Shown in pieces: positions 187 to 46,537 of a stretch of 64,000 nucleotides of DNA. Source of the DNA: an uncultured Victivallales bacterium (GTDB taxonomy: Bacteria; Verrucomicrobiota; Kiritimatiellia; UBA8416); NCBI GenBank assembly GCA_964609395.1, contig CAZSRU010000001.1, positions 7,324-71,323 on the forward strand, read 5' to 3'. Positions within the stretch are counted from its first letter, which is position 1; every line of letters starts with the position of its first letter. A program made the position numbers and the translations under genes. The notes beneath the pieces were generated by a model. The model was given only the letters and a program-made list of their open reading frames with translations, was not told where the DNA came from and did not search any database.

Positions 187-1715
<1,529 letters not shown>

Positions 1716-1725
1716 ACGGGGGTCT

Positions 1726-2256
1726 CTAATTGAATTTGAGCAGCGCAACCAGCGGATAGCCATCTGTAAGCAGCGTTACCGCCCCCGGTAACTGCTGGAA
1801 GCGCAGCACGTCATCCGGCTTGATCGCGGTTGCTGAAGGAGCCGAAAGCGAAAACGTGGTTTCCACCCCGAAGAGGGTTGCCGTCAGTGCCCCGGCCACG
1901 ATATTAGCCCATTCCTTGATGGCGTCTATCGTGTCCGTATCGCCAACGTCCCCAAGCTCGAGGCCAAGTACATTTGCCGCGATTTCCTTTCCCTGTGCAA
2001 CCGGCACGGCAACCTGCAATTCACCGCACTGGGCGCTGCCGGTGAATGCCACCACGGCTGATATGTAATCATCGGCGGGGAGGGTGGGGGGGGCATCACC
2101 ACTGTCGATTTCGGCAAAAACAAAGGCGAAATTCTCCAGCGTGGCAACCAGTGCCTGTTTTAGCGAATCGAGGATCGCGTCATCCTGTACGGTTTTCATC
2201 TCCATGCTTGGCTCCTGGCTGGGGGTCTGCGGGACGCTGCGTTTGGTGGGGTTCAC
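1726..2256 (-). CDS. cheX: CheX/CheC-family chemotaxis phosphatase
   Basis: 176 aa, N-terminal helix then CheC-like fold signature (ANVLGLELGDVGDTDT, IVAGALTATLFG); sits in the che operon. Confidence 0.6.
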   Translation of the reverse strand: MNPTKRSVPQTPSQEPSMEMKTVQDDAILDSLKQALVATLENFAFVFAEIDSGDAPPTLPADDYISAVVAFTGSAQCGELQVAVPVAQGKEIAANVLGLELGDVGDTDTIDAIKEWANIVAGALTATLFGVETTFSLSAPSATAIKPDDVLRFQQLPGAVTLLTDGYPLVALLKFN

Positions 2257-2259
2257 CCG

Positions 2260-3132
2260 TTAAATGAGTGACATCAGGATGTCCGACTTGGTCGATTCCT
2301 CGTGGATTTCATCCACGATAAGGGATATATCCGATACGGATAAGCCAAGGCGCTTCCAGACGGTTTGCACACATGCCGGATCAGCAAGATCGCCACCGTT
2401 GCCGATCTGTTCGCGATTGCAGATATAGTTAGCCATGTGGCACAGCGCTGTCGCTTCCCAATACTCGGGGGGCGCTGAATCGGGATCGTGGTGCCAGAGG
2501 ATCGGCAGCATCAGGTCTTCGGCCATGTTCCATTTGCCGCAAAGCCATCCGCCGAGTGCTGCATGATCGATTCCCGCCGCCTCCAGCTCTGCGCTGTAAA
2601 GGCTCATTGGCCTCGAACTGGCCAACGCAAGCGCGGCATGGAACTCATCGGCCATGAATTGATCCATGATCAGCTTGCCGATATCGTGGAGCAGGCCGAC
2701 AAGCCGCAAGGTCTCGTTGGTATGTCTTTTCTTCAAATTCGGCTTCGCATGCTTATTCACGACACAAGCCGCAATTCCCACGCTGATGGAATGCCGCCAG
2801 AACTCATCGCGGTTGAAATTGCCGCCTTGCTGATGACCGAATGCAGAGAAAATGGACGTGGATAGGGCAATGTTATTGGTGGCGGTCAACCCCAGTCTCG
2901 CCACCGCTTGTTGCACGGACTGTATTTCTACCCCGCCTGCATAAAGGGATGAGTTAACCACTTTGAGAATTCGTGCCGTAATCGCCGGGTCGTCCTCGAT
3001 CAGCCGCGCAATCGAGTTGGCGTTTGAATTGGGGTCGCGCACGGCTGCCGACAGCTTGTTCATAACGAGTGGTAGTGTCGGCAGGTTGCGTACGCCGTTC
3101 AGGATATCGATGATTTCATTAATGTTTTTCAT
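2260..3132 (-). CDS. HDOD-domain signalling protein
   Basis: HDOD-type motifs (ITARILKVVNSSLY, LHDIGKL, HAALG) in a 290 aa protein. Confidence 0.7.
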   Translation of the reverse strand: MKNINEIIDILNGVRNLPTLPLVMNKLSAAVRDPNSNANSIARLIEDDPAITARILKVVNSSLYAGGVEIQSVQQAVARLGLTATNNIALSTSIFSAFGHQQGGNFNRDEFWRHSISVGIAACVVNKHAKPNLKKRHTNETLRLVGLLHDIGKLIMDQFMADEFHAALALASSRPMSLYSAELEAAGIDHAALGGWLCGKWNMAEDLMLPILWHHDPDSAPPEYWEATALCHMANYICNREQIGNGGDLADPACVQTVWKRLGLSVSDISLIVDEIHEESTKSDILMSLI

Positions 3133-3176
3133 TAACAGCCGCAGCCTTTCTGACGGGATTGCGTATGAGTTGTCAA

Positions 3177-3578
3177 TTAATCTGTTGTGGTCTTCTCGGG
3201 AGTCCTGCCAAGTAGGCGCGTCATGATATCGCGAATGCCTTCGGGCGTAAAGGGTTTGTTTAGATATTCACGCACACCCCGGGCCTTGAGTTCGCGCATG
3301 CGCATCTCGCTGCGGTCGGTACTGACGATGACGACCGGCGTTTCCTTTAATTTACCCTGTCGTTCCATCTCCTCGACCATCTCGACCCCGTTCATCACCG
3401 GCATGTTAAGGTCGGCAAACATCAGGTCAACCCATTGGGCATCGAGTATATCAATGGCTTCGCGCCCGTTGGCCGCCTCGAAGATCTCACCGATATCCTC
3501 GCCGGTCATGCGTACCGCACGTCCGACGACTTTGCGTACAATTGCGGAATCATCAACAATTAAAATATTATAAGCCAT
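3177..3578 (-). CDS. cheY: Chemotaxis response regulator CheY
   Basis: 133 aa single receiver: [35 protein letters not shown] motif. Confidence 0.85.
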   Translation of the reverse strand: MAYNILIVDDSAIVRKVVGRAVRMTGEDIGEIFEAANGREAIDILDAQWVDLMFADLNMPVMNGVEMVEEMERQGKLKETPVVIVSTDRSEMRMRELKARGVREYLNKPFTPEGIRDIMTRLLGRTPEKTTTD

Positions 3579-3607
3579 CGGATGTGCTCCTGTCTTCTCT
3601 CAAGTAT

Positions 3608-4504
3608 TTATGTCTTGTCGACTTCGGGTTGGATGATCGAATTCCATTCATTCATTTTCTCAAGCGTGATGCTGGCAACCTGCTCAATATCCTGGGAGCG
3701 TAGCCCCAGCCTGACCGCCCCATCTTCGGTAACGATATACCGGAATCCGTCAATCCCGTCACCCACGCCAAGACTATATACCAGCGTATCGGCTAAATGC
3801 ACCATTAAAGCGGTTTCCCGGTACTCCGTGGCTAGATTCGGGTGGTGGTGGTGGTTCACAATGGCGATCAACTCCTCTGGGAAGGCCCACTTTTCCATCA
3901 ACCATGCGCCCGCCTGTGGGTGACTGACGCCTAGAATGTTGATTTCAATCTGATCAAAGGCCGCGTCGGAATCACGCAATTGGGCGTCAAATTCACGGCG
4001 GTTCTCCTGTACGAACGGGTCTAGCACGATTTTTCCCATATCATGCACGAGCCCTGCCGTGAAAAGCATTTCCTTCGGGTGACGTCCAAGGCTTAAAGCC
4101 AGCGTTTCGGCGGTCAGGGCCACGCCGATCGAATGTTTGAGCAGCATATGCGGTTCCAGGTCGTAGCCGTCGAGTTTCATGGCCAGGTGTGTGGCAAGCC
4201 CCTGTGCCATGATTATGCGAAACAGCCGTTTCGAACCCAGTCGCACAAACGCCTGTTGCAGCGAATCGATCCGTTGTGCTCCTGAAAACGCAGCGGAATT
4301 GACGACTTTGAGGATATTCATGGTAATGCCGGGATCGTAGCGTACGCTGTCGGCAAGCTGCTTGAAATCAAGATGCGGATCGGTTGCATGCGCCATCAGG
4401 TCGCGGAACATGGCTGGCATCGGTGGATGTGCGTCAACGGCATGGCGAATACGTTCAATCGTATCGTCTTGGCGGTTGTGGCTGTCGTTGCGTTTGTTGA
4501 TCAT
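3608..4504 (-). CDS. HDOD-domain signalling protein (second copy)
   Basis: MNILKVVNSAAF, GLVHDMGKIVL, HP(Q)AGAWL - HDOD signature; 298 aa. Confidence 0.7.
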   Translation of the reverse strand: MINKRNDSHNRQDDTIERIRHAVDAHPPMPAMFRDLMAHATDPHLDFKQLADSVRYDPGITMNILKVVNSAAFSGAQRIDSLQQAFVRLGSKRLFRIIMAQGLATHLAMKLDGYDLEPHMLLKHSIGVALTAETLALSLGRHPKEMLFTAGLVHDMGKIVLDPFVQENRREFDAQLRDSDAAFDQIEINILGVSHPQAGAWLMEKWAFPEELIAIVNHHHHPNLATEYRETALMVHLADTLVYSLGVGDGIDGFRYIVTEDGAVRLGLRSQDIEQVASITLEKMNEWNSIIQPEVDKT

Positions 4505-4507
4505 GCT

Positions 4508-4987
4508 CTAGAACTCACTTTCCACGCCGGATGACCGAAGAGTGCAGCGCCCACTGCCGATTTCGAGTTTCAAGGTTCGTGATAAAGAACCGCCGACCTG
4601 TTCGGCCTTGATCATCAATCCGTTTTTCCAAAGGATTTTGCGAAGCACGGTGTGGTTACGCTCCCCGATCCGGAAAAGGTTGCTGTTATCGAGTATCCGT
4701 GCGCAGCCAGCCACTTTTATAATGGCCCGCGAGCGGTTTACACCGAGTTCAAAGAGCATGGTAAGGAATTTCATCATGCCCGAGTCAACAAACATAAACG
4801 GCTTCACTTCGGCCTTCTGTGGATCAACACTGGCGATCGGCAGCATGCAGTGAATGATCCCGCCGACCTGGACCCCGGGATCATAGATGGCAATGCCCAC
4901 GCATGAGCCCAGTGAGTAGGTGACGAGCGTATCATCGGGATTATTCGAAACCTTGCCGTCGGCTATATCAATTATTATCTGACTCAT
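4508..4987 (-). CDS. cheD: Chemoreceptor glutamine deamidase CheD
   Basis: 159 aa with YSLGSCVGIAIYDP and GGIIHCMLP motifs characteristic of CheD. Confidence 0.85.
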   Translation of the reverse strand: MSQIIIDIADGKVSNNPDDTLVTYSLGSCVGIAIYDPGVQVGGIIHCMLPIASVDPQKAEVKPFMFVDSGMMKFLTMLFELGVNRSRAIIKVAGCARILDNSNLFRIGERNHTVLRKILWKNGLMIKAEQVGGSLSRTLKLEIGSGRCTLRSSGVESEF

Positions 4988-5802
4988 TTTATGTATACCG
5001 ACGGTTTAACGCTACGGAAATTACCCAGCATACCCGATAAGCTTTCCGCGTGACCGACCATCAGGATGCCGCCGGGTTTCAAAAGGCGCCAGATTTCATC
5101 GAGTAGCCCTTTCCTGACTTTGTTGTCGAAATATATCATGACATTTCGGCAGAATACAATATCGAAAGGCCCCGCCATCGGATATGGCGGTTGCGCGAGA
5201 TTAAGTCGGGCAAACGAAAGCATGCGGCGCAGTTCATCGTTCACGACATAGCAGCGGTTGGCAACGTCTGCCGGTTCCTTTCTGAAGAACCGGCGGGTCA
5301 TTGATTCTGGAACCTTTTCGAGGTGCCTTGGTTCGTAGCGACCGGCCTTGGCAACATCAAGAGCGCGCGTGGAAATGTCGGTGGCCAGAATCTTGAAGTC
5401 GCTGACGTCGGGAATCGCGGCTCTGGCCGTCATCGCGATCGTGTAGGGTTCCTCTCCTGTCGATGAGGCGGCGCACCAAATGCGAAACGAGCGCTGGCCG
5501 CCGCCGTGCCATTGCTGAAGCAGCTCGGTGAGCAGTTGGAAGTGATGTTCCTCACGAAAGAAGTAGGTGACGTTGGTGGAAATGGCATTAAGCATTTCGA
5601 CAAGCTCGTCGCCGTCCTTATCGTCCTTTACCAGACGATAATACTCCTCGTAACGGTCAATTCCGAGCGCTCGCATGCGTTTTCCCATGCGCGAGGCCAC
5701 CAGTGCTTCCTTTTGCGGCCCCAGATGGATGCCTGCCTTGTCGTAGACAAGCTCGCAAAACCGGCTGAACATTTCGGCACTTAACTCTTCATTCTTATTC
5801 AT
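4984..5802 (-). CDS. cheR: Chemotaxis protein methyltransferase CheR
   Basis: 272 aa; CheR N-domain and SAM-MTase region (FRIWCAASSTGEEPYTIAM, FDIVFCRNVMIYF). Confidence 0.9.
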   Translation of the reverse strand: MNKNEELSAEMFSRFCELVYDKAGIHLGPQKEALVASRMGKRMRALGIDRYEEYYRLVKDDKDGDELVEMLNAISTNVTYFFREEHHFQLLTELLQQWHGGGQRSFRIWCAASSTGEEPYTIAMTARAAIPDVSDFKILATDISTRALDVAKAGRYEPRHLEKVPESMTRRFFRKEPADVANRCYVVNDELRRMLSFARLNLAQPPYPMAGPFDIVFCRNVMIYFDNKVRKGLLDEIWRLLKPGGILMVGHAESLSGMLGNFRSVKPSVYIK

Positions 5803-5990
5803 GCGGGGTTCAGACTATGTGTAAACCGGTTCGCAATCAATCACAAAAGAACTAAAAAATTGAAAACATACAGGGTTGCGTTATTTGATTTATGACGTTA
5901 TGTTTACCCCTGATGTCGGACTTGTGTTTGTCTTTCGGCAGGCAAGTTCGCCGAGTCAGGGCTAATGTTACAACAGGGAGTTCGGGCAGT

Positions 5991-7031
5991 ATGAACGATA
6001 CGAATGATGCCGCGAGCATGGCTCCGTTGGGGCGCGACGGTGTGGGGCGCTGTGCTGTTGCGTGCCCGATGTGCGGGCATGAGCACACGCAGTACCGGTT
6101 GAATCCACGCATGTACTGGAATAACGATCTTGATCTGGATCGCAAGCCTTCAGGTTTCCAATGCTTGAAGGGGCTTGCGGGGCTGTATCCTCCGCTTTAC
6201 GATTTGTGGCATTGCCCGAAATGCCATTTCACGACGCATAACCGGACGTTTCCCGATCCTCTGAAAAATGTGTTCATCGAAAAAGGGCTTGTACAGCGGC
6301 ACTTGGCGGATGCGGCCAAGCCGGGAACGGCATTTTCGCGTGTTTGTGAGGTCCTCGGGGCGGATCAGAATATCGATAAGGTCGATTTTCAATCCGCTAT
6401 CCGCTGTGCGTTACTGGCCATTTATTTCGACGCCTTCATCGTCGGCCTTTTGAGACAAGGATATGCGTCGTTGGCGCGAAGCTGCTTAAGGCTGGCGTGG
6501 TTGCACCGGGATTGGACGTCAATGGATGCTGATTACGATTCCAAGAGTACAGCATTAAGTGCAAAAATCGACAAGCTTGCCGTCGATTGGCCGGATATTC
6601 CCCGATCAGAGAATGATGCCTTGAAGTTGGCCTGCGTTCACTATGAGGCCGCCCTGAACGAAGCGTCCGTTGAAAATGATCCCATGGAAACGGCTACGAT
6701 TCTCATGCATTTGGCGCGAATTTGCCTGCAGATGGGGGATACAAGCTCGCCCGCCAAGCATCTGGAGGCATGTCGCCGCGGTGCGATGGAAGAGCAAAAC
6801 CGACTGGCTGCGGTCATGCACGAGGATGATCGGCGCCGAGAAATGCCTGAAGATGAACGAGGTCAACTGGTTTCCGCCAGCCGGCGCATCAAGACGATGA
6901 TTGATGACTGCGGCGACCTTCAGACGGAAATCCGCCGTTTGCAGTCAGCGGCCAAGGCACCGGTTGCGTCGCGTCAGGTGAAATCCCCTGAACCGAAGAA
7001 AGGGTTGCTTAAAGGGTTTTTCGGTGGGTGA
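5991..7031 (+). CDS. DUF2225-like zinc-ribbon protein (CxxC-N37-CxxC then long helical region); start moved to ATG 5991 (RBS AGGGAG)
   Basis: CPMCGHEH...NDLDLDRKP...LYPPLYDLWHCPKCHF matches the DUF2225 N-terminal arrangement; divergently placed between cheR and fliO. Confidence 0.55.
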   Translation: MNDTNDAASMAPLGRDGVGRCAVACPMCGHEHTQYRLNPRMYWNNDLDLDRKPSGFQCLKGLAGLYPPLYDLWHCPKCHFTTHNRTFPDPLKNVFIEKGLVQRHLADAAKPGTAFSRVCEVLGADQNIDKVDFQSAIRCALLAIYFDAFIVGLLRQGYASLARSCLRLAWLHRDWTSMDADYDSKSTALSAKIDKLAVDWPDIPRSENDALKLACVHYEAALNEASVENDPMETATILMHLARICLQMGDTSSPAKHLEACRRGAMEEQNRLAAVMHEDDRRREMPEDERGQLVSASRRIKTMIDDCGDLQTEIRRLQSAAKAPVASRQVKSPEPKKGLLKGFFGG

Positions 7032-7539
7032 TCTGGTTGCCTGTGGCATGTCGGGTGCTTATAGCTCCGGCATGAGACAGAACTTTTCTCGATATTGTCG
7101 CTCAGCGCTTCTTCTTTCTGTGATATTGCTTTCTATGCGAACGGCGCTTGCCGCCGATCAAACGAATGCAAATGGACAAGCCATGCCGTCGCGGGATGTG
7201 CCCGCTTGGGTCTCGCAGTCATCCGGCGGTTCCGCAGATACGCTGGCCCGGCCAGGCCGTTATGGTGCTTTCCGCTCGATGGCGGCTCTGCTGGTTGTGC
7301 TTGGCGGGTTATTCGGGGTGCATGTGCTTCTGCGCCGGCGTGGTGCACTTTGGACTAGCCCCGATCTTCTGTCGTTGCGCGTTGTGGCCCGCAAGCGTTT
7401 CGGTGCACGACAGGAACTGATTGTAGTCGAATGGGAGGGGCAGCGCCTGCTCCTAGGGGCGGGGCCCGGTTTTATTACCCGACTTAGCCGCATGGCGTCG
7501 GCAACAAAGCCGCAGGGTGCAGAGGAGCAGGATTCATGA
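7024..7539 (+). CDS. fliO: Flagellar biosynthesis protein FliO (exact start uncertain)
   Basis: Single TM segment and conserved FliO C-terminus LLSLRVVARKRFGARQELIVVEWEGQRLLLGAG; followed directly by fliP. Confidence 0.75.
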   Translation: MGDLVACGMSGAYSSGMRQNFSRYCRSALLLSVILLSMRTALAADQTNANGQAMPSRDVPAWVSQSSGGSADTLARPGRYGAFRSMAALLVVLGGLFGVHVLLRRRGALWTSPDLLSLRVVARKRFGARQELIVVEWEGQRLLLGAGPGFITRLSRMASATKPQGAEEQDS

Positions 7540-8369
7540 ACGTCTTCTGGCGTAACTGTGCGACTTCCGTTGTGCGCCGTATTCCTGTGCTTGCGATCGC
7601 GCTGGTCGTGCTGACGTCAGGTGCGCCGCGTGCTTTCTCGCAGGATGCGGGTATTCCTACGACGCCTGCCTCAAGCGGAATGTCCAGTCCGGCGGGGCCG
7701 CTAGGGGTCCAGATTCGCTTTGACGGGGGCGAATCCCCGGAGACGCTCTCGACTAGCATTCGGATCCTGATCTTGATGACTGTGCTTTCCCTGGCGCCAT
7801 CGGGTATGATCATGCTGACGGGGTTTACGCGTATAATGATTGTGCTGAGCATCGTCAGGCGCGCGATCGGCCTCCAGTCTGCCCCACCGAATCAGCTTAT
7901 TGCCGGCTTGGCCATGTTCCTGACGTTTTTCGTCATGCGTCCCGTATTCGAAGAAATTCATAAGAATGCCTGGGAGCCGTTGCGTGCCGGTGCGATTAGC
8001 GACATGGAGGCATGGGATCGGGCGGCGGCACCGCTGCGGACTTTCATGCTGCGGCAGAGCGGTGAGTCGGAGTTGCGCTTGTTTCATGAATTGGCCAACG
8101 AGCCGATCCCCGAACGGCCTGAAGAGGTTAAGCTAGGTGTGCTGGTGCCAGCTTTCATGGTCAGCGAATTGAAAACGGCCTTTCAGATGGGGTTCTTGGT
8201 CTGGTTGCCTTTTTTGGTCATTGATCTTGTCCTGGCGTCCTCGTTGATGGCATTGGGGATGATGATGCTGCCGCCGATGATGATCTCGTTGCCCATTAAA
8301 GTCTTGTTCTTCGTGCTGGCGGACGGATGGACGATTGTGATTCATGGGTTGGTGAAAAGCTTCTTGTGA
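7536..8369 (+). CDS. fliP: Flagellar export gate protein FliP
   Basis: Signal peptide plus conserved FliP core (GFTRIMIVLSIVRRAIGLQ, FLVIDLVLASSLMALGMMMLPP). Confidence 0.95.
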   Translation: MNVFWRNCATSVVRRIPVLAIALVVLTSGAPRAFSQDAGIPTTPASSGMSSPAGPLGVQIRFDGGESPETLSTSIRILILMTVLSLAPSGMIMLTGFTRIMIVLSIVRRAIGLQSAPPNQLIAGLAMFLTFFVMRPVFEEIHKNAWEPLRAGAISDMEAWDRAAAPLRTFMLRQSGESELRLFHELANEPIPERPEEVKLGVLVPAFMVSELKTAFQMGFLVWLPFLVIDLVLASSLMALGMMMLPPMMISLPIKVLFFVLADGWTIVIHGLVKSFL

Positions 8370-8393
8370 TTGATGCGTGAAAGGTGAGCGACT

Positions 8394-8657
8394 ATGACAC
8401 CACAAATGGCATTGGAATTGTCTAACCGCGCGATGATGATCGCGCTGCAACTATCCTTGCCGATGCTCTTGACCGCCATGATTGTCGGCGTTGTGGTCAA
8501 CATCTTTCAAACGGTAACCTCGATTAAGGACCAGAGTTTGGCGTTTGTTCCCAAGATCCTGGCCGCGGCGGCGGTAACGGGGTTGGCGATGCCCTGGGGT
8601 ATCCAGATGATGAGCGCCTATTTCCGCGATATGTACCAGCTCCTGGGCGGGTTGTAG
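8394..8657 (+). CDS. fliQ: Flagellar export gate protein FliQ
   Basis: 87 aa two-TM protein with FliQ consensus. Confidence 0.9.
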   Translation: MTPQMALELSNRAMMIALQLSLPMLLTAMIVGVVVNIFQTVTSIKDQSLAFVPKILAAAAVTGLAMPWGIQMMSAYFRDMYQLLGGL

Positions 8658-8659
8658 TC

Positions 8660-9436
8660 ATGACCGTGCTGCTGGGGGATTATCCGGTTGTCCTGTTGAT
8701 GGTGTTCTTCCGGGTGAGTGGTGTCCTGCTGGTTCTGCCGTTCTTCGGCATCCCGGCGGACAGCGGGTGGTTGCTGGCGGGAGCGTCGCTGCCGTTGACG
8801 CTTCTCTTCGCCAGCGTCATTTCACCATCCTGGAGTGCCGCCGCAGCCGCCCTGACCACAACGGGCGACTTGGTGCTGGCTATTTTTGGCGAAACCATGC
8901 TTGGCTCGGCGATCGGCTTGGTTTGCGGGATTTTTATCAACGCTTACGTGGTTGCCGGCACCCTTGCCAGCAGCGGATGTTCGCTGTCAATGGCCGAGGA
9001 ACTGGATCCGATAACCGGCGAGTCCTCGGATGTGCTGACGCAGGTTTGGCGCATGCTTTTCCTGTTGACGGTGCTGTCAACGGACGCGCACCTGATGGTT
9101 TTCCGCATCCTGGCGCGCACGTTCGAGCAACTGCCAGTGCCGTGGGTCGGTTGGGTGCATGGCGGACGCGACCTGGCATTGCTCGGGGGCACCGCATTCC
9201 GTGCCGGAATGTCGATCGCACTGCCGATTATTCTGGTTTCATTACTGGTCAGTATAGGTATGGCCTTGATCGCCCGAATGGCCTCCGGCTTTGATGTCAT
9301 GTTTCTCTCGCTGCCTTTCCGCTTGCTACTCGGGTTGAGTGTTTTTGCTCTTGCCTTGCTGTTGGGCGGCGGACTCCTGCGCACTATGGCATATCAGATG
9401 CTATCATCCTTGTCTCAGTTCCTAGGATGGTATTAA
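8660..9436 (+). CDS. fliR: Flagellar export gate protein FliR
   Basis: 258 aa polytopic membrane protein in fliPQR-flhB order. Confidence 0.85.
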   Translation: MTVLLGDYPVVLLMVFFRVSGVLLVLPFFGIPADSGWLLAGASLPLTLLFASVISPSWSAAAAALTTTGDLVLAIFGETMLGSAIGLVCGIFINAYVVAGTLASSGCSLSMAEELDPITGESSDVLTQVWRMLFLLTVLSTDAHLMVFRILARTFEQLPVPWVGWVHGGRDLALLGGTAFRAGMSIALPIILVSLLVSIGMALIARMASGFDVMFLSLPFRLLLGLSVFALALLLGGGLLRTMAYQMLSSLSQFLGWY

Positions 9437-9480
9437 TCATCGTGATGCATGTGGGATTTTCCCCATGAAAAGCAGGGGTT

Positions 9481-10617
9481 ATGGAAGGCAAAGACGGCAA
9501 AAGCGAGAAAGCGACCAGTAAGCGGCGCTCTGAGCAGCGTGATAAAGGCAATCTGGCCGTATCGCAGGAAATCATCACTGTGGCTGTATTGTTCCTAACG
9601 GTGATCCTGCTCCGCCAGGGATTCCCTTCCTATCTGGCTGGAACACGCCGTATGCTTGAAGTCAGTTGCCTGGCGATGAGTGCCGATGACGCGTGGAGCG
9701 GAATTTGGTTGCAACAGCAATACTGGCACGGGCTCGGAGCTGTCTTGCGTGTTATCGCGCCACTCGTGGGCGGAATCCTGCTGGCGGGGATTATCGGCAG
9801 CGTCGGCCAGACGGGCCCCTTTTTCAGTTGGGAGGCCTTTCAGGCTGGCGGCCTCAAGGCGCTTGACCCGATCAAGGGGGCCAAGCGATTATTCTCGTTC
9901 AAATCGGTGACCAAACTGCTGATGACGCTGGCGAAAATCGGATTGATTGCGGGCGTCATGACCCTTATGTGGCGACGCAAGTGGAATACCGTTGCCCAGT
10001 TGCACGATTTTGACTTGAGTTCGGCTGTCGGCTGGGTGGGACATAACCTCTATACGACGGTCATGGTGATTATCGTGTTGGCGATCTGCATTGCCGTCGT
10101 GGATTTCGTGATCACCTACCGTCGGCATGAGAAAAGCATGATGATGTCCAAGCAGGAGGTCAAGGACGAGCGCAAACAGTACGAAATGAAGCCCGAGGTC
10201 AAACGGGCGCAATTTCGTAAGATGCGGTCATTGACCATTTCCAGGATGGTGGCGGAAGTACCTAAAGCGACCGTGATCATTACAAACCCGACTCGGGTGG
10301 CGGTGGCGATCAAGTATAATCCCGCCGAGATGGAGGCGCCACAGGTTGTCGCCAAAGGCCTGCGCATCCGGGCCAAGCGCATTCGCGAACTGGCGGCAAA
10401 GCACGGGATCCCGATCGTGGAGCGCCCGCCGCTGGCACGCGCCTTGTATCGGTCTGTGCCGACGGGACGCTCTATCCCCGCCGGGCTGTTCGAGGGCGTT
10501 GCGGAAGTGCTTGCGTATCTGCATCGGTTAGGGTACCGGCTGGAAGGGATTGCGGGTCAGAAGGTGTCGACGGGAAATGCCGTCGAGCAGGAAGGATATA
10601 GGGCGCCATGGCTTTAA
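9481..10617 (+). CDS. flhB: Flagellar export switch protein FlhB
   Basis: 378 aa; four TM segments; autocleavage site NPTR/NPTH-like (VIITNPTRVAVAIKYN); C-terminal cytoplasmic domain. Confidence 0.9.
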   Translation: MEGKDGKSEKATSKRRSEQRDKGNLAVSQEIITVAVLFLTVILLRQGFPSYLAGTRRMLEVSCLAMSADDAWSGIWLQQQYWHGLGAVLRVIAPLVGGILLAGIIGSVGQTGPFFSWEAFQAGGLKALDPIKGAKRLFSFKSVTKLLMTLAKIGLIAGVMTLMWRRKWNTVAQLHDFDLSSAVGWVGHNLYTTVMVIIVLAICIAVVDFVITYRRHEKSMMMSKQEVKDERKQYEMKPEVKRAQFRKMRSLTISRMVAEVPKATVIITNPTRVAVAIKYNPAEMEAPQVVAKGLRIRAKRIRELAAKHGIPIVERPPLARALYRSVPTGRSIPAGLFEGVAEVLAYLHRLGYRLEGIAGQKVSTGNAVEQEGYRAPWL

Positions 10618-12707
10618 AGGATTTTAGGCATTCCGATTTGCTGGTGGCCGCGGCGATGATCCTGATCTTGTCCGTGCTGATTCTCCCGATTCCGACACCA
10701 CTGCTGGATGTGATGCTCGTGCTGAGTATCGCCATGGGGGCGCTCGTTCTATTTATCACGCTTCAGTTGAAGGATGCCCTTCAGCTTTCCTCATTCCCTT
10801 CCATGCTGCTGATGCTGACGCTTTTCCGGCTGGCTCTCAATGTTGCCACCACACGCCAGATTCTGCTCACGGGTTTTGCTGGCAACGTGATCCAGTCGTT
10901 TGGCGATTTCGTGGTGGGTGGCAACTATGTTGTCGGTGTGGTTATCTTCCTGATCCTGGTGCTTGTGAATTTCATGGTGATCACCAAGGGAGCGGGGCGC
11001 ATCGCCGAGGTGGCAGCCCGGTTTACGCTGGATGCTATGCCAGGCAAGCAAATGAGTATCGATGCCGATCTGAATGCCGGGCTGATTGATGAAGCGACAG
11101 CCCTGCGTCGTCGCGAGGGGCTTTCCAGCGAGGCTGATTTCTACGGGGCGATGGATGGTGCCAGCAAGTTTGTCAAAGGCGATGCGGTGGCCGGCCTCGT
11201 CATTACCGCCATCAATATCGCTGGCGGTTTTGCGATCGGCATGATGCAGCAGGGTATGGGTGCGATCGAGGCCTTGCAGAAATATACACTCCTGACGGTG
11301 GGTGATGGCCTTGTCTCGCAGATTCCCGCGTTGGTGATCTCGACGGCAGCCGGCATGCTGGTGACACGCGCCGCTTCGGATCAAAGCCTGGGCGAGGACA
11401 TCAAATCGCAGCTTTTCATGCGCCCCAAGCCTCTGTATGCGACGGCGGGAATGCTCGGTGCCATGGCGCTGGTGCCGGGGCTGCCGTTCATGCCGTTTAT
11501 GCTGCTGGCGATGACGATGGGCGGCATCGGGTATTCGCTACGCAAGTTGCCGCCGCCGTCGGAAACCACATCTGCGCCGGGGGGGGCAAAGAAAAAGGCG
11601 CTGCCGGGGAGTGACGAGGCGAAAGCATTGCCCATGAGTCGCCCGGCGGATATCCCGGATGTAAGCGCGATGGATGTTGAAATCGGCTTTGGTCTGGTTC
11701 CTCTGGTTGACCGCGGCCAGGGAGGCACGTTGCTGGATCGGATTACCACGATCCGGCATCAGATGGCCGAAGACCTCGGGTTCATTCTCCCTCCCGTGAA
11801 TGTGCATGATAACGCCAGGTTGCGCAATACGGAGTATGCGATCCGTGTCCGTGGTCTGGAGGTTGCGCGTGGTATCCTGCAGCCGCAGCAGTGGTTGGCA
11901 GTCGATGCCACTGGCGATGTGCATTTTGAAGGCCCGGCACCGGTTAAGGAACCGACCTTCGGATTCCGGGCGTGGTGGGTGAGCGCCGCGCAACGCGAAC
12001 TGGCCGAGGCTCGAGGAATGACGGTTGTGGATGCCAGCGGTGTGCTCAGTACGCATCTGGCTGAGACGATTCGCCGCCATGCCGGGGAGCTGCTGGGGCG
12101 GCAGGATGTCAGCGAGATGATTGATAATGTCAAACAGAAGCATGCGTCGGTTGTGCAGGAGTTGATCCCGGCCCGACTCAGTATCGGTGTCGTACATCGC
12201 GTGCTTCAGTATTTGCTGCGTGAACGCGTTTCGGTTCGCGATCTTGCCTTGATCCTGGAAACCCTTTCTGATCATGCTGCCAAAACGCAGGATCCGGTGA
12301 TTCTTGGCGAACTGTGCCGCCGCTCCCTTGGTGGTCATATTGTGGGGGCCTATCTTGAGGCTGGCAACCGACTTCCCGCCATCGCGCTGCACCCGGAGCT
12401 TGAATCCGCGATGCAAAGCGCGATTCATCGCGAGAACGGTGACTTGGGCGTATTGGCTTTACCTCCGGTGCAGGTGCAGGCTATTCTGAAAAGCGTTGAA
12501 ACCATTCTTCAGGCGGCTCGCAAAAAGAATCGCCATCCGGTAATGGTGGCACTTCCGGTTTTACGGCGGCATATCCGTCGATTAATCGAAGCGCAGGAGC
12601 GAGATCTGGCTGTGCTTTCATTTGTGGAAATACCGGATTTTGTTGATATTGATGTTATCGGGTTGATCAAGACGCCTTCGGGGCAAGCAGGCAAGGGAGA
12701 TGCGTGA
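10608..12707 (+). CDS. flhA: Flagellar export apparatus protein FlhA
   Basis: 699 aa; conserved TM core, FHIPEx-like loop and large C-terminal cytoplasmic domain. Confidence 0.95.
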   Translation: MALKDFRHSDLLVAAAMILILSVLILPIPTPLLDVMLVLSIAMGALVLFITLQLKDALQLSSFPSMLLMLTLFRLALNVATTRQILLTGFAGNVIQSFGDFVVGGNYVVGVVIFLILVLVNFMVITKGAGRIAEVAARFTLDAMPGKQMSIDADLNAGLIDEATALRRREGLSSEADFYGAMDGASKFVKGDAVAGLVITAINIAGGFAIGMMQQGMGAIEALQKYTLLTVGDGLVSQIPALVISTAAGMLVTRAASDQSLGEDIKSQLFMRPKPLYATAGMLGAMALVPGLPFMPFMLLAMTMGGIGYSLRKLPPPSETTSAPGGAKKKALPGSDEAKALPMSRPADIPDVSAMDVEIGFGLVPLVDRGQGGTLLDRITTIRHQMAEDLGFILPPVNVHDNARLRNTEYAIRVRGLEVARGILQPQQWLAVDATGDVHFEGPAPVKEPTFGFRAWWVSAAQRELAEARGMTVVDASGVLSTHLAETIRRHAGELLGRQDVSEMIDNVKQKHASVVQELIPARLSIGVVHRVLQYLLRERVSVRDLALILETLSDHAAKTQDPVILGELCRRSLGGHIVGAYLEAGNRLPAIALHPELESAMQSAIHRENGDLGVLALPPVQVQAILKSVETILQAARKKNRHPVMVALPVLRRHIRRLIEAQERDLAVLSFVEIPDFVDIDVIGLIKTPSGQAGKGDA

Positions 12708-13923
12708 GATGAAGATCCGCCGTTATAAAGGCTCGAGTCGCGAAGAACTCTACCAGTTGATTAACAAGGAGATGGGGCCGAACGCAGTCGTTGTGGCTCC
12801 TGAGACCTCGGGTGGGGGACTATTGACGCGCGGTAAGAAATATGAATTGATCGCGATTCTGGAGGATGCGGAAGAGTCGGGGGCGTCAACCGCAAAGGCG
12901 GCCCCTGCGGGGGGGGCGGCCGACCCTGCGGTCGCAGACGATATGAACCGGTGGCAGCGTATACATACCAGGCAGTGGCGCGAACTGCAAACGAAGATGA
13001 GTCAAATCCAGAAGACCGTGGATACGTTGCAGGCTGGGCATCATGCCCCCCGCGGCGTTGCGCCGGATTCACTGCCTGTGCACGCGGCACTGTGGGACTC
13101 GCGTTTTGTTCAATGGGCAAGGCGGGAAAAAATGGAGCTGCTGGATGCCGATGCGCAACAAGTACGCGCTATTCTGGGCGATTCCCTGCCGATCGAAGGG
13201 CATTTCCAGTTCAAGGGACAGCAAAAGAAACCGCATATTATTGTCCTGACCGGTCCTACCGGATCCGGCAAGACCACGACATTGGCCAAGATGGCGGCAA
13301 TCTGTGCGCATCAGGAGCGCTTGCGTGTCGGTATTGTCAGTATCGATACCTACCGGGTGGCGGCGGTCGATCAGATCCGCGAGTATGCCTCGCTGCTGGA
13401 CATGGAGTTACGCGTTGCGTTCTCGGCGGACGAGGCGCGTTCCGCGATTGCAGAGCTCGCCGATAATGATGTGATTCTGGTGGATACGCCCGGCCGCACC
13501 CATTTTGATGAGATGGGGCTTGCCGTCAGTCACAAGGTTCTGCGGGGAATGGGGGAAATGACGGTCCTGTTAACGATCCCGGCGACCTTGAGTATCAACG
13601 ATCTGGCCGATACGCTGCAGGGGTTCAAGCGCTTTCAGCCGCGTTATCTGGTCGTGACGAAAGTGGATGAGACGCGCCAACCGGTTCTTTTTACGGCCTT
13701 GCCTTTCGAAACGGATTTGAAGGTTGCGTTTGTGACCAATGGGCAGCGGGTCCCGCAGGATATTTTTCCCGGTGACGCCGAGCGGATTGGCGCACTACTG
13801 ATGCCGACGCGAGGGAGCGTTGAGTCCTCACCCAAGCCGTTCAGTTCGGTTTTGCAAGACCGCGTTGACAGTGTTCACGCAACGCGTGCCCGTGCCGCGG
13901 ATGATGCCGGAGGCAGGCAATGA
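12700..13923 (+). CDS. flhF: Flagellar SRP-type GTPase FlhF
   Basis: GPTGSGKTTT P-loop, DTPGR, TKVDE motifs; follows flhA. Confidence 0.9.
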   Translation: MREMKIRRYKGSSREELYQLINKEMGPNAVVVAPETSGGGLLTRGKKYELIAILEDAEESGASTAKAAPAGGAADPAVADDMNRWQRIHTRQWRELQTKMSQIQKTVDTLQAGHHAPRGVAPDSLPVHAALWDSRFVQWARREKMELLDADAQQVRAILGDSLPIEGHFQFKGQQKKPHIIVLTGPTGSGKTTTLAKMAAICAHQERLRVGIVSIDTYRVAAVDQIREYASLLDMELRVAFSADEARSAIAELADNDVILVDTPGRTHFDEMGLAVSHKVLRGMGEMTVLLTIPATLSINDLADTLQGFKRFQPRYLVVTKVDETRQPVLFTALPFETDLKVAFVTNGQRVPQDIFPGDAERIGALLMPTRGSVESSPKPFSSVLQDRVDSVHATRARAADDAGGRQ

Positions 13924-14849
13924 ATGTCGGTAGTAATCTTAATGAGCACACCGGGGATCAGGCCGCCGCCTTGCGTCCGTCAACACCCTTGAGTAAAAAG
14001 ATGGCACCACCCCCTGTCGGTGCGCGTTGTATCGCGATCGGGAGCGGCAAAGGCGGTGTCGGCAAAACCGTGGTTTCGGTCGGATTGGCACTGTCGTTAT
14101 GCGAGCGCGGTCAGCGTGTCCTTCTGTTTGACGGGGATATGGGGCTGGCAAACGTGGACTTGCAGATGGGGTTGGTGCCTGCCTTTACAATACAGGATGT
14201 GATCTTCGGGCATTGTTCGCTTGAAAAGGCCTGTATGCGCATCGAAGGAGGGCCGGATGTGCTGGTGTCTGCCTCGGGTGCTCCCGAACTGGCTGATCTG
14301 AGCCCGGCAAGACGTCAGCTTTTTATTGAGGATCTATTCCGTTTTTCGTCCAATTATGATTATTTCCTGATTGATACCGGTGCCGGTATCGGGCGTGGCA
14401 GCACCGATTTCCTGGCTGCCTGCCCGGAGGTGCTGGTTGTGCTGACGAACGAACCGACCTCGCTGATGGATGCGTATGCCTTGATCAAGACACTGCATCT
14501 GCGGGGTGAGGTACACGGGCTCGGGGTGATCGTGAATATGGTGGATTCGCTTGACGAAGGCGAGCGGGTTTTCTCTCGACTCAATGCGATTGCACGGCAG
14601 TTTCTCGGTGTGTCGTTGGCTCTGGCTGGGGTTCTGGTTTATGATCGGCAGGTCTCGGATGCGATTCGTCAACAGCAAAGCATTGTCCGCTATGCCAGCG
14701 GGGGGGCGGTTGCGCATTGCTTGCGTGATCTGGCCCGCCATATCGAAACCCGCCCTCGGCAACAGGTGGTGCCGCTGAGCTTGGCGCAGTGGGGAAAACA
14801 GTGGGAAGTGACGGCGTTTCTTTCGGCCGAAGGGGATAAGGCATTATGA
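13920..14849 (+). CDS. flhG: MinD-like ATPase FlhG/FleN (flagellar number regulator)
   Basis: Deviant Walker A GSGKGGVGKT; ParA/MinD fold; follows flhF. Confidence 0.9.
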   Translation: MNVGSNLNEHTGDQAAALRPSTPLSKKMAPPPVGARCIAIGSGKGGVGKTVVSVGLALSLCERGQRVLLFDGDMGLANVDLQMGLVPAFTIQDVIFGHCSLEKACMRIEGGPDVLVSASGAPELADLSPARRQLFIEDLFRFSSNYDYFLIDTGAGIGRGSTDFLAACPEVLVVLTNEPTSLMDAYALIKTLHLRGEVHGLGVIVNMVDSLDEGERVFSRLNAIARQFLGVSLALAGVLVYDRQVSDAIRQQQSIVRYASGGAVAHCLRDLARHIETRPRQQVVPLSLAQWGKQWEVTAFLSAEGDKAL

Positions 14850-15157
14850 AGGCGCTCTTATGTCAGATTGCATTGATTGTAGGCGGGATCGTGGCAGCCC
14901 TGTCGCTTGGGGTTAACTTGTTGCGGCATATGGAGCTGTTCACGGCGGTTTTCCGCGCCATCCTTGTTTTTATCGGTACAGTCACCATCATCTTTCTCTT
15001 CCTGCATCTTTTCTCTGTGATCCTGGTCCGTTTTGTTGCCGAGCAGGTGGTCCAGCAACGTAGTCATGCCGATGACGAACAGAATAAGACAAAGCAAGCT
15101 GGTACCTTTGTGCGTACACGCGCAGGAACGGCACCAAAAGCGATTGAACCGAAATGA
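14846..15157 (+). CDS. Small two-TM membrane protein between flhG and fliA (translationally coupled, ATGA overlaps)
   Basis: 103 aa, two hydrophobic helices then charged tail; overlaps flhG stop and fliA start. Confidence 0.5.
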   Translation: MKALLCQIALIVGGIVAALSLGVNLLRHMELFTAVFRAILVFIGTVTIIFLFLHLFSVILVRFVAEQVVQQRSHADDEQNKTKQAGTFVRTRAGTAPKAIEPK

Positions 15158-15927
15158 GTACGCAAACAACCGATATCAAGGATGAGGAATGTGTAGCCCT
15201 GTGGGCGACGCATGTCGCGGCCCCATCGGAGGATTCGGTTGCTCGCCTTGTCGAGTTTTACCTGCCGATGGTGCGCCAGACGGTTGCGCTGATGTCGGTT
15301 TATTGCCGCCCGGACCTTGACCGGGACGACTTGATCCAGCACGCCATGATGGGACTGTGGCAGTGCATCGAGAAGTTTGATCCTCAACGCCAGATCCGGT
15401 TTCGCAGCTTTGCGATGCCGCGGATTCGCGGGGCGGTGCTGGATGCGCTGCGACGGCATGACCCGTTGAGCCGGAATGACCGCGCACTACTGAAAACATT
15501 GCAGGATTCGGTGGCACTTTTCAGTCATCAGCACCAGGCGGTTCCGGATGAGGAAACGCTGGCAGCGCTGGCCGATATCGATGTCGACCGGTTGCATGAT
15601 TTAACTGCGCGTGCCCAGCCTGTGCTCTCGTTGGATGGAATCGGGCTCGAGGACATGGAAGGCAATGGGCAGAGTCTTGGAGACCGGTTGATTGATGAAA
15701 ATGCACCGGATCCACGCCTGGAAACAGTGCGCAACGAGCAGGGTGCCATTTTCAGGAAAGCCTTCAAGCAATTACCGTCACGACAGCAGAAGATCCTCTA
15801 TTTGTACTATTATGAAGACTTGACTTTAAAGGATATCGGCGCAATTCTGGATCTTACAGAGGCGCGTATATGCCAGTTGCATGCAACGGCACTGCTTTTT
15901 TTGAAAGCATTGATGAGAAGCGCGTAA
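15154..15927 (+). CDS. fliA: Flagellar sigma factor sigma28 FliA
   Basis: Sigma70 regions 2-4; region 4.2 HTH LTLKDIGAILDLTEARICQLHATAL. Confidence 0.9.
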   Translation: MSTQTTDIKDEECVALWATHVAAPSEDSVARLVEFYLPMVRQTVALMSVYCRPDLDRDDLIQHAMMGLWQCIEKFDPQRQIRFRSFAMPRIRGAVLDALRRHDPLSRNDRALLKTLQDSVALFSHQHQAVPDEETLAALADIDVDRLHDLTARAQPVLSLDGIGLEDMEGNGQSLGDRLIDENAPDPRLETVRNEQGAIFRKAFKQLPSRQQKILYLYYYEDLTLKDIGAILDLTEARICQLHATALLFLKALMRSA

Positions 15928-16259: not shown

Positions 16260-16766
16260 TTATGACACGCTGATCTGCGTGTAAAACACGTCGGCGTTGA
16301 GCGTGACCGGCGCGACCATGGTGAGCTTGACACCCGATGGGGTACAGAGATGGTGGTTGACGCCAACCGCGATCGTCGGCAGCGAGAGTGACAGCAGGAA
16401 TCCTTTCTCGGAAAGTCGTGTCTTGGCTCCTCCGGCAGCCATGTTGGCCAGTTCACCCACGACGTCATTCAGTTCATCCGAGGCTACTTCAGCATCACTC
16501 TCCATCATCATCATGCTTCTGAAAATCAGCTTTGCCAACTCTTCGGGGAAAATCAGCGAGAGTTGAGCGCGTACTTCGATGCCGCTTTCAGGATGTGTGC
16601 CTGAAAGACTGATGGTTCCTGAGACATTTCCGGTGGGGGATCCAGCTTCCTTTGATGCAATTTCCCCAACCGAAACGGGCAGCATGACCATTTGGGTAAA
16701 CGTATCTTCAAGGCTCGCGAAAACGGCCGGGGGGATCTGCATCAATAATTCCGTTGTATTGCTCAT
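16260..16766 (-). CDS. CheC/CheX-family phosphatase (start moved to MSNTT ATG 16766, RBS AAGGA)
   Basis: Motif ELNDVVGELANMAAGGAKTRLS typical of CheC-like domains; downstream of cheY. Confidence 0.6.
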   Translation of the reverse strand: MSNTTELLMQIPPAVFASLEDTFTQMVMLPVSVGEIASKEAGSPTGNVSGTISLSGTHPESGIEVRAQLSLIFPEELAKLIFRSMMMMESDAEVASDELNDVVGELANMAAGGAKTRLSEKGFLLSLSLPTIAVGVNHHLCTPSGVKLTMVAPVTLNADVFYTQISVS

Positions 16767-16794
16767 GATTCGGTCCTTGCTGTCTTCGTTGGTG

Positions 16795-39310: not shown

Positions 39311-39362
39311 ATCGATATTCCTTACCATGTCCGAGCGGAGTCAATCGTGGTCTCGATTTGCT

Positions 39363-43475: not shown

Positions 43476-43491
43476 GGGGACGCTCCTGCCG

Positions 43492-46453: not shown

Positions 46454-46469
46454 TGGCATCCGTGGTGCT
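46454..46469 (+). promoter_or_regulatory. sigma54 promoter TGGCATccgtgGTGCT upstream of fliW-csrA
   Basis: Exact spacing; ~70 nt before the fliW ATG. Confidence 0.5.
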
Positions 46470-46537
46470 TTAGAGAAGCAGCCAAGTCGAGAGGCAACGC
46501 GAACACGGAGGCGGTAAAACAAACGAGGGACGCAGCT

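What the first reader, a model, noticed from the sequence alone, without database searches (positions are those of the whole stretch)
5991..7031. DUF2225-like zinc-ribbon protein wedged between the che operon and fliO
The 346 aa protein carries the CxxC-N37-CxxC arrangement with a conserved NDLDLDR..LYPPLY core, characteristic of the uncharacterised DUF2225 family, followed by a long helical tail. It is divergently transcribed from cheR and sits directly upstream of the fliOPQR-flhBA export-gate operon. Function is unknown; a candidate flagellar or chemotaxis regulator.
Basis: partly seen in the sequence, partly recalled or inferred. Interest (0 to 1): 0.55.

Follow-up and report, generated by a model that had tools for sequence, protein, structure and literature searches.

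The report
DUF2225 zinc-ribbon protein heading flagellar operon
This is a real, conserved gene for an uncharacterised zinc-binding, helical-repeat protein that ends in a MinD-like membrane anchor and is the first gene of the operon for the flagellar export gate, so it is a credible but untested new flagellar accessory factor.

Summary
ORF 5991-7031 (+) encodes a 346-aa protein that passes Pfam's DUF2225 threshold (50.8 bits against a cut-off of 21). It has four invariant cysteines and is under purifying selection. The gene lies 188 bp from cheR, divergently transcribed. It sits directly upstream of fliOPQR-flhBA-flhFG-x-fliA on the same strand, with no terminator between.

In eight other loci from uncultured Verrucomicrobiota-type MAGs (40-91% identity) the gene holds exactly this position, usually opposite cheA. 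Eleven loci of more distant members (33% identity or less) carry no flagellar structural genes nearby.

The new finding is the C-terminus, EPKKGLLKGFFGG. It matches the E. coli MinD membrane-targeting sequence at 9 of 13 positions, and this tail type is conserved across the subfamily. The AF2 model shows a zinc ribbon, a TPR-like solenoid, a long helical hairpin and a disordered tail. No solved structure is a close match.

My best reading is a cytoplasmic, peripherally membrane-bound adaptor acting in early flagellar assembly or placement, or in motor control. The partner is unknown. The only genetics for the family is a 2025 preprint linking a Leptospira DUF2225 gene to motility.

It is a new member of a known uncharacterised family, of moderate interest.

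The parts
5991..7031 (+). DUF2225 gene (346 aa): zinc ribbon, TPR-like solenoid, helical hairpin, disordered linker, C-terminal membrane-targeting tail
   Evidence: Pfam PF09986 at 50.8 bits; homologues and alignment; AF2 model with pLDDT 80.5 and pTM 0.79; dN/dS 0.27
6063..6227 (+). Zinc-ribbon module: CPMC (residues 25-28) and CPKC (residues 75-78), with a 46-residue insert carrying the conserved RLNP..YW..DxDxDRKP..YPPLY motifs
   Evidence: The four Cys are the only invariant columns in 79 diverse subfamily sequences. Beta strands 18-24, 31-37, 72-74 and 81-83 appear in the model.
6282..6956 (+). All-helical region (residues 98-322): TPR-like repeat helices 98-247, including the conserved LRLAWLxRDW motif (residues 166-175), then a long antiparallel hairpin 253-322
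6990..7028 (+). C-terminal tail EPKKGLLKGFFGG: MinD-like amphipathic membrane-targeting sequence, preceded by a disordered linker (residues 323-333)
   Evidence: 9 of 13 residues are identical to the E. coli MinD C-terminus EEKKGFLKRLFGG. The tail pattern is present in 54 of the first 100 proteins retrieved (the close homologues plus the best-scoring subfamily representatives) against 0 of 3540 shuffles. pLDDT is below 50, as expected for a lipid-induced helix.
5803..5990 (.). Divergent intergenic region between cheR and the DUF2225 gene, with a putative sigma-70-like promoter TTGCGT (5876-5881)-N17-TATGTT (5899-5904) and the SD AGGGAG (5975-5980)
   Evidence: Read by eye. The hexamers are conserved in L001, and the loci at 40-46% protein identity carry CTTG(T/C)(G/C)G-N17-TATATT. 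The tool's stricter consensus scan found nothing, so this is weak evidence.
7024..15927 (+). Downstream co-directional genes fliO, fliP, fliQ, fliR, flhB, flhA, flhF, flhG, a 103-aa membrane protein and fliA. This is the probable operon that the DUF2225 gene heads.
   Evidence: Pfam. No terminator-like site lies between 7031 and fliO. The same order is found in eight other loci.
187..5802 (-). Divergent chemotaxis operon: cheR, cheD, HDOD, cheY-like RR, HDOD, cheX, RR, cheB
   Evidence: Pfam

Best explanation
The gene encodes a cytoplasmic adaptor protein with four parts. An N-terminal four-cysteine zinc ribbon and a TPR-like helical solenoid form a protein-binding module. A long helical hairpin probably mediates self-association. 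The last ~11 residues form a MinD-type amphipathic helix that holds the protein reversibly on the inner face of the cytoplasmic membrane.

In this Verrucomicrobiota-type lineage it is transcribed as the first gene of the early flagellar operon (fliOPQR-flhBA-flhFG-x-fliA). It therefore most likely acts at the membrane during the earliest steps of flagellum construction, such as export-gate assembly or FlhF/FlhG-dependent placement. Control of the finished motor is a less likely variant.

Shown here: family membership, domain layout, conserved tail, conserved gene order, purifying selection.
Inferred: zinc binding, membrane binding, co-transcription.
Speculative: the partner and the step affected.
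For: - DUF2225 membership is established by Pfam.
- The four Cys are invariant in 79 diverse sequences.
- The AF2 model has pTM 0.79 and shows a zinc ribbon, a helical repeat and a hairpin. No TM segment or signal peptide was noted on reading the sequence and the model; no predictor was run.
- The tail EPKKGLLKGFFGG matches the MinD tail EEKKGFLKRLFGG at 9 of 13 positions. The MinD tail is an established, transplantable lipid-binding helix (Szeto 2002/2003 and Hu & Lutkenhaus 2003, as cited in PMC6803595).
- The tail is conserved in 54 of 100 subfamily proteins against 0 of 3540 shuffles.
- The gene sits directly upstream of fliO on the same strand, with gaps of about 10-105 bp, in the window and eight other loci. 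DUF2225 identity across these loci is only 40-91%.
- There is no terminator before fliO.
- The whole 64-kb window is a flagellar/chemotaxis supercluster.
- A Leptospira DUF2225 knockout is impaired in soft-agar motility and is partly complemented (PMC12236494).
- A recent review states that factors giving FlhF spatial specificity are unknown outside HubP/FipA systems (PMC12826062).
Against: - No partner has been identified and no experiment exists for this subfamily.
- Subfamily members at 33% identity or less (11 loci) have no flagellar structural genes within 7-10 kb. The fold's basic activity is therefore not flagellum-specific.
- One close homologue (P0003, 53%) keeps the divergent cheA but is followed by an acyltransferase, not fliO.
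- The Leptospira mutant keeps normal cell morphology. This argues against a gross assembly defect in that organism.
- The hydrophobic-moment calculation did not single out the tail. It did not single out MinD's tail either.
- I could not obtain the Leptospira sequence to measure how closely it is related.
Confidence: 0.4

Rival explanations
1. It is a chemotaxis or motor-control adaptor rather than an assembly factor. On this reading the membrane-tethered TPR module links the che pathway (CheA, CheY-like regulators, CheX/CheD) to the motor or to receptor arrays, and affects switching or speed.
For: The gene is always at the head of a divergent promoter region facing a che operon: cheR here and in L001; cheA plus a response regulator in L005, L012/13, L017, L018 and L019. 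P0003 retains the cheA neighbour but has lost the fliO neighbour. The Leptospira DUF2225 mutant spreads poorly in soft agar yet has normal morphology, which suggests its flagella are still assembled.
Against: The gene shares a strand and short gaps with fliO, not with che genes. One locus (L016) has a glycosyltransferase upstream and no che gene. Divergent adjacency may simply reflect the che and fla operons being neighbours. There is no sequence resemblance to any known Che protein.
Confidence: 0.22
2. It is a membrane-sequestered regulator of flagellar gene expression. For example, an anti-sigma or anti-activator-like factor could use its zinc ribbon and TPR domain to hold FliA, RpoN or one of the sigma-54 activators at the membrane until the export gate is built.
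For: fliA is in the same operon. rpoN and two sigma-54 response-regulator activators are in the window. No FlgM was recognised by Pfam in the ORFs I scanned. N-terminal zinc-binding domains tethered to the membrane are a common anti-sigma layout (background knowledge).
Against: There is no ZAS (Hx3Cx2C) motif and no match to any anti-sigma or FlgM family. Distant members lie in unrelated contexts. The FlgM search was not exhaustive, because small ORFs were only partly scanned. Nothing positive points to sigma binding.
Confidence: 0.1
3. It is a general membrane-associated scaffold with no dedicated flagellar role. Its position before fliO would then be a lineage-specific accident of gene order, retained by descent.
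For: All loci sharing the arrangement come from one Verrucomicrobiota-type lineage. Eleven loci of more distant members show no flagellar neighbours, and Omnitrophota members sit near lpxD and the mraZ-ftsI cluster instead.
Against: The position is kept while the protein itself has diverged to 40% identity and while the upstream neighbour has changed between cheR, cheA and a glycosyltransferase. Tight same-strand spacing suggests co-transcription. An independent member of the Pfam family affects motility in Leptospira.
Confidence: 0.2

Closest known systems
Pfam PF09986 (DUF2225), including Leptospira biflexa LEPBIa0550 / OG8135 (preprint PMC12236494)
   Same: It passes the family HMM and has the four-Cys zinc ribbon followed by a helical region. 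The one studied family member is needed for normal soft-agar motility.
   Different: The family has no assigned biochemical function. This clade is known only from uncultured MAGs and heads the fliO operon. Similarity to the spirochaete protein could not be measured here, and whether that protein has the MinD-like tail is unknown.
MinD C-terminal membrane-targeting sequence (also used by FlhG and FtsA-type amphipathic anchors)
   Same: It is at the extreme C-terminus. A basic pair is followed by G-hydrophobic-hydrophobic-K-x-hydrophobic-F-G-G, giving 9 of 13 identities to E. coli MinD. It follows a disordered linker.
   Different: It is attached to a zinc-ribbon/TPR protein rather than a ParA/MinD ATPase. 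There is therefore no nucleotide switch, and membrane avidity would have to be controlled by oligomerisation or partner binding. Lipid binding is untested.
FlhF/FlhG landmark and accessory factors (HubP/FimV, FipA, GpsB)
   Same: It is a membrane-associated accessory protein encoded with flhF and flhG. It would fill the role, still unknown outside gammaproteobacteria and Bacillus, of giving FlhF/FlhG a spatial cue (PMC12826062).
   Different: There is no sequence or domain relationship: HubP/FimV have LysM plus a TM segment, and FipA has a TM segment plus DUF2802. The functional parallel is a hypothesis only.
Flk (Salmonella) and SwrB (Bacillus subtilis): membrane-anchored, cytoplasm-facing modulators of the flagellar type III export apparatus (from my own knowledge)
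   Same: It has a cytoplasmic body held at the inner membrane by a C-terminal anchor. SwrB is likewise encoded in the same operon as the export gate.
   Different: Flk and SwrB use a true transmembrane segment and have no zinc ribbon or TPR domain. There is no homology.
TPR scaffolds (LGN/Pins, NASP, Rap/PlcR family)
   Same: These are the best structural matches to the helical region. The likely mode of action is binding of peptides or helices in a solenoid groove.

Membership tests
DUF2225 (PF09986) | Score above Pfam's gathering threshold for the family HMM | tested here: met
   50.8 bits against a cut-off of 21, E 2.3e-13, residues 23-260 on HMM positions 6-190 of 214. All 27 homologues carry a precomputed PF09986 annotation.
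DUF2225 (PF09986) | N-terminal CxxC...CxxC zinc ribbon | tested here: met
   C25, C28, C75 and C78 are the only invariant columns in 79 diverse sequences. A beta-hairpin ribbon appears in the model. Metal binding itself is not testable here.
DUF2225 (PF09986) | Helical (TPR-like) region after the ribbon | tested here: met
   The AF2 model shows helices 98-322 with pLDDT around 90.
MinD-type membrane-targeting sequence | Extreme C-terminal basic-plus-hydrophobic motif resembling KKGFLKRLFGG | tested here: met
   9 of 13 identities to the E. coli MinD tail. The motif is conserved in 54 of the first 100 proteins retrieved, against 0 of 3540 shuffled controls.
MinD-type membrane-targeting sequence | Forms an amphipathic helix that binds lipid and is sufficient to target a reporter to the membrane | not testable with these tools
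   Hydrophobic moment is 0.30, against 0.27 for MinD's own tail. Neither stands out within its own protein, so the calculation is uninformative. A GFP-tail fusion or liposome assay is needed.
Canonical TPR repeat proteins | Match to TPR sequence models or a clear TPR superhelix | tested here: inconclusive
Flagellar operon member (early fliO-flhA-flhF operon) | Conserved same-strand adjacency to flagellar genes across diverged relatives, with no intervening terminator | tested here: met
   The window plus L001, L003, L004, L005, L016, L017, L018 and L019 share the arrangement. No terminator-like site was found. The exception is the P0003 locus. Co-transcription itself was not measured.
Known flagellar, chemotaxis or anti-sigma protein families (FlgM, ZAS anti-sigma, FipA, HubP, Flk, Che proteins) | Sequence match to the family model | tested here: not met
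   The only Pfam hit is DUF2225. NCBIfam gave nothing above cut-off. PDB sequence and fold searches gave no specific relative.
Anti-phage defence proteins (zinc ribbon/TPR components) | Match to PADLOC models | tested here: not met
   No PADLOC hits, and the context is entirely flagellar.

The most novel reading that the evidence does not exclude
This DUF2225 clade is a previously unrecognised, dedicated component of early flagellar biogenesis. On this reading it is a peripheral-membrane (MinD-type anchor) zinc-ribbon/TPR adaptor that recruits or organises FlhF/FlhG or the FliOPQR-FlhBA export gate at the assembly site. More broadly, DUF2225 proteins would be a widespread class of membrane-tethered adaptors, one branch of which also underlies the spirochaete motility phenotype.
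Probability: 0.3. Interest if true: 0.65.

Novelty: new member of a known kind. Interest (0 to 1): 0.45.

Why it matters
How FlhF/FlhG-type systems find their assembly site outside the HubP/FipA organisms is an open question, and so is what helps the export gate nucleate. A conserved unknown gene sits at the head of the fliO-flhA-flhF-flhG-fliA operon. Its likely location (inner membrane face) and mode of action (TPR scaffold) can be read from sequence, so it is a concrete candidate. Together with the Leptospira knockout, this gives the DUF2225 family a testable functional hypothesis and a specific handle for experiments, namely the MinD-like tail. The caveat is that this clade is known only from uncultured MAGs, so tests must use heterologous systems or the spirochaete homologue.

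Tried and rejected
- Longer ORF from ATG 5892: rejected. The extension has in-frame stops in L001, homologues start at the position of 5991, and the ATG lies inside the putative promoter.
- Sequence search of the PDB with the family profile: only marginal coiled-coil/TPR noise.
- NCBIfam and PADLOC: nothing.
- Rfam and tRNA scans of the window: nothing.
- Sigma-54 and sigma-28 consensus searches upstream of the gene: no hit in the window. The tool's sigma-70 scan found none at its stringency.
- Domain fusions as functional clues: only a hemerythrin fusion and extra zinc ribbons, which are not informative for motility.
- Profile word-search and two cluster look-ups, to reach named organisms or the spirochaete homologue: these returned only unnamed metagenomic proteins.
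- Hydrophobic-moment scoring of the tail: uninformative even for MinD itself.
- Literature: DUF2225 appears in only three papers in the library, and only one concerns function.

Full report
**1. Observation**

ATG 5991 to TGA 7031 on the plus strand gives 346 aa. A longer reading from ATG 5892 exists in the window. It is not conserved: in the 91%-identical relative L001 the same frame has stop codons, and all homologues begin level with residue 1. An AGGGAG ribosome-binding site precedes ATG 5991.

Against L001 the gene shows dN 0.044 and dS 0.164, so dN/dS is 0.27. It is a protein under purifying selection.

The two cysteine pairs are CPMC 25-28 and CPKC 75-78, which are 46 residues apart and not 37.

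**2. Family**

Pfam assigns PF09986 (DUF2225) at 50.8 bits against a gathering score of 21, covering residues 23-260. Nothing else is hit. NCBIfam and PADLOC give nothing.

A word-indexed search of 5.8 billion proteins found only 27 relatives. The best is 91% identical, a group lies at 38-54%, and a tail reaches down to 26%. An exhaustive profile search of 1.84 billion cluster representatives found 531 clusters at E <= 1e-3 and 163 at E <= 1e-30. This is therefore a modest subfamily. As far as any names are available, it comes from uncultured organisms.

In an alignment of 79 diverse members the only invariant columns are the four cysteines. Within the closer set, D50, P53, LRLAWLxRDW (166-175) and E207 are also fixed.

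**3. Anatomy**

The AF2 model built on the 21-sequence alignment has pLDDT 80.5 and pTM 0.79. It shows:
- a disordered N-terminus (residues 1-15);
- a beta zinc ribbon (18-83) with a less confident inserted loop;
- a stack of helices (98-247);
- a long antiparallel helical hairpin (253-322);
- a disordered C-terminus (325-346).

I saw no signal peptide or transmembrane segment on inspection; no predictor was run.

**4. The C-terminal tail (new here)**

The protein ends in ...SPEPKKGLLKGFFGG. The alignment shows this tail is conserved even where the linker before it is not. A pattern of two basic residues followed by G/S/K, two hydrophobic residues, 1-2 small or polar residues and two more hydrophobic residues occurs within the last 22 residues. 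It is found in 54 of the first 100 proteins retrieved, against 0 of 3540 shuffled controls.

I fetched E. coli minD and translated it. It ends in ...EEEKKGFLKRLFGG. Over the last 13 residues the two tails share 9 identities.

The MinD tail is the classic membrane-targeting sequence. It is a transplantable lipid-binding amphipathic helix whose weak affinity makes membrane binding depend on dimerisation (Szeto et al. 2002, 2003 and Hu & Lutkenhaus 2003, as listed in PMC6803595; the mechanism is from established knowledge).

I therefore infer that this protein is held peripherally on the cytoplasmic face of the inner membrane, possibly in an oligomerisation-dependent way through the helical hairpin. 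This is an inference. A simple hydrophobic-moment score did not distinguish the tail, but it did not distinguish MinD's own tail either.

**5. Context**

Pfam annotation shows the entire 64-kb window is a flagellar/chemotaxis supercluster:
- Minus strand, 187-5802: cheB, RR, cheX, HDOD, cheY-like, HDOD, cheD, cheR.
- Plus strand, 5991-15927: DUF2225, fliO, fliP, fliQ, fliR, flhB, flhA, flhF, flhG, a 103-aa two-TM protein, fliA.
- Minus strand, further on: fliN, fliM, fliL, two motB-like genes, motA, a flgE/G-like gene, flgD, fliK, a ylxF-like gene, fliJ, fliI, fliH, fliG, fliF.
- Elsewhere in the window: two sigma-54 two-component systems, fliD, two flagellins, flgF, flgG, flgA, flgH, flgI, a rod-binding protein, flgN, flgK and rpoN.

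The DUF2225 stop codon abuts the fliO start region, and no terminator-like site intervenes. The 188-bp gap to cheR contains a plausible TTGCGT-N17-TATGTT promoter that is conserved in L001. The more distant loci have CTTGTGG-N17-TATATT at the equivalent place (read by eye). This evidence is weak, because the tool's own consensus scan found nothing.

**6. Synteny test**

A scan of one genome per species found 11 loci, and exact-protein look-ups added more. I compared 39 flagellar and chemotaxis proteins of the window against all loci with tblastn.

The order DUF2225-fliO-fliP-fliQ-fliR-flhB-flhA-flhF-flhG-(103 aa)-fliA recurs in L001 (91%), L019 (52%), L018 (49%), L016 (46%), L017 (44%), L004 (43%), L003 and L005 (40%). 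All are on the same strand, with gaps of about 10-105 bp. Over the same set FliP stays at 66-79% identity and FlhA at 72-80%. The DUF2225 protein therefore evolves as fast as FliO (34-43%) yet keeps its place.

The upstream neighbour changes:
- cheR in the window and L001;
- cheA plus a response regulator, divergently transcribed, in L005, L017, L018 and L019;
- a glycosyltransferase in L016.

There is one exception in the clade. P0003 (53%; L002, L012 and L013) keeps the divergent cheA but is followed by an acyltransferase.

None of the 11 loci of members at 33% identity or less has a flagellar structural gene within 7-10 kb. These come from deltaproteobacterial, Omnitrophota, Pseudobacteriovorax and other sources. 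The Omnitrophota genes lie next to lpxD and near mraZ-ftsI. The flagellar linkage is thus a property of this clade and not of the whole subfamily.

**7. Literature**

DUF2225 occurs in three papers of the searchable library. The relevant one is a 2025 preprint on Spirochaetes (PMC12236494). Phylogenetic profiling there picked out a DUF2225 orthogroup that is present in spiral, motile spirochaetes and lost in non-spiral ones. Inactivating LEPBIa0550 in Leptospira biflexa reduced spreading in semisolid medium. Growth and cell morphology were unchanged, and complementation was partial.

I could not retrieve that sequence, so its distance from this clade and the presence of the tail in it are unknown. 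A 2025 review of FlhF/FlhG notes that the factors giving FlhF spatial specificity are unknown in systems lacking HubP/FimV and FipA (PMC12826062).

**8. Mechanism**

The best-supported reading is a cytoplasmic zinc-ribbon/TPR adaptor tethered to the inner membrane by a MinD-type helix. It is co-expressed with the export gate, FlhF, FlhG and FliA, and acts at the membrane early in flagellar assembly or placement (confidence about 0.4).

The rivals are:
- a chemotaxis or motor-control adaptor, supported by the constant che neighbour and the morphology-normal Leptospira mutant (about 0.22);
- a general scaffold whose position is inherited by descent (about 0.2);
- a membrane-sequestered regulator of FliA, RpoN or the sigma-54 activators (about 0.1).

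The structural description is much more secure than any of the functional assignments.

**9. Novelty and verdict**

The protein is a bona fide member of a known but uncharacterised Pfam family, so I class it as a new member of a known kind. Three things are new:
- its conserved place at the head of the early flagellar operon in a Verrucomicrobiota-type lineage;
- the MinD-like membrane anchor shared across the subfamily;
- the resulting testable model.

Interest is moderate (0.45). It is a good candidate accessory factor, but it has no experimental handle in its own uncultured lineage and no identified partner.

Noticed in passing
window 14846-15157 (+): A 103-aa predicted two-TM protein with no Pfam family sits between flhG and fliA. 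It is conserved at that exact position in L001, L004, L005, L016, L018 and L019 (55-97% identity). This is another unannotated, syntenic flagellar-operon gene.
   Followed up: partly
A1 alignment columns ~345-395; e.g. P0008, P0010, P0019, P0023-P0025: Longer homologues (about 370 aa) carry an extra conserved module of about 30-40 residues (consensus like ..LRxLLExxGIPxxLIRELVPE..) just before the basic/GLFGLF tail. It resembles a helix-extended-helix motif. The window protein and its nearest relatives have lost it but kept the tail.
   Followed up: no
window 20292-21050 (-) and 21026-21817 (-): Two tandem MotB-like genes lie downstream of motA. Both have the MotB plug, but only the distal one has a recognisable OmpA-like domain.
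   Followed up: no
window 35754-37985 (-): A 743-aa ORF with no Pfam match lies between a PAS histidine kinase/sigma-54 activator pair and a response regulator, inside the flagellar cluster.
   Followed up: no
window 187-5802 (-); L001 2734-4173: The che operon has two HDOD proteins, cheX, cheD, cheR, cheB and two receiver proteins, but no cheA or cheW. In L001 it continues into a sigma-54 activator. A second CheX lies at 16260-16865. In relatives, CheA has an N-terminal extension of about 285 aa before the Hpt domain.
   Followed up: partly
window 41562-43568 (-), 49057-50871 (+), 45112-46077 (-), 47562-48503 (+): An asparagine-synthase-like gene and a 604-aa MptE-like protein (a domain I recall from Maf-type flagellin-modification proteins; not checked here) flank two flagellin genes and fliD. 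This suggests flagellin glycosylation or modification. Several neighbouring ORFs have no Pfam hit (46175-46717, 48542-49057, 51093-51560, 51935-52771).
   Followed up: no
window 38771-39328 (-): A small 185-aa protein with a coiled-coil-like region and a C-terminal LysM domain lies between a response regulator and a sigma-54 activator. LysM is also the peptidoglycan-binding domain of the HubP/FimV landmarks, but nothing further was tested.
   Followed up: no
P0084 (585 aa); P0110 and P0064: Some subfamily members are fused to an N-terminal hemerythrin domain (O2/iron sensing) or to extra zinc ribbons.
   Followed up: no
L023 and L024 (Omnitrophota-type loci), gene at 7001-8131 / 7001-8116: Distant DUF2225 members share a conserved neighbourhood, divergent from lpxD and just downstream of mraZ-rsmH-ftsL-ftsI. 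This hints at a cell-envelope or division association for that branch.
   Followed up: no
window 25799-26431 (-): A 210-aa ORF between fliJ and fliK has only a weak MgtE_N match. It occupies the position of ylxF in the Bacillus fla/che operon. The window's gene order (fliF...fliK-flgD-flgE...motAB-fliLMN, and fliOPQR-flhBA-flhFG...fliA) follows the Firmicute/spirochaete-type layout, split into two divergent blocks (the Bacillus order is from my own knowledge).
   Followed up: no
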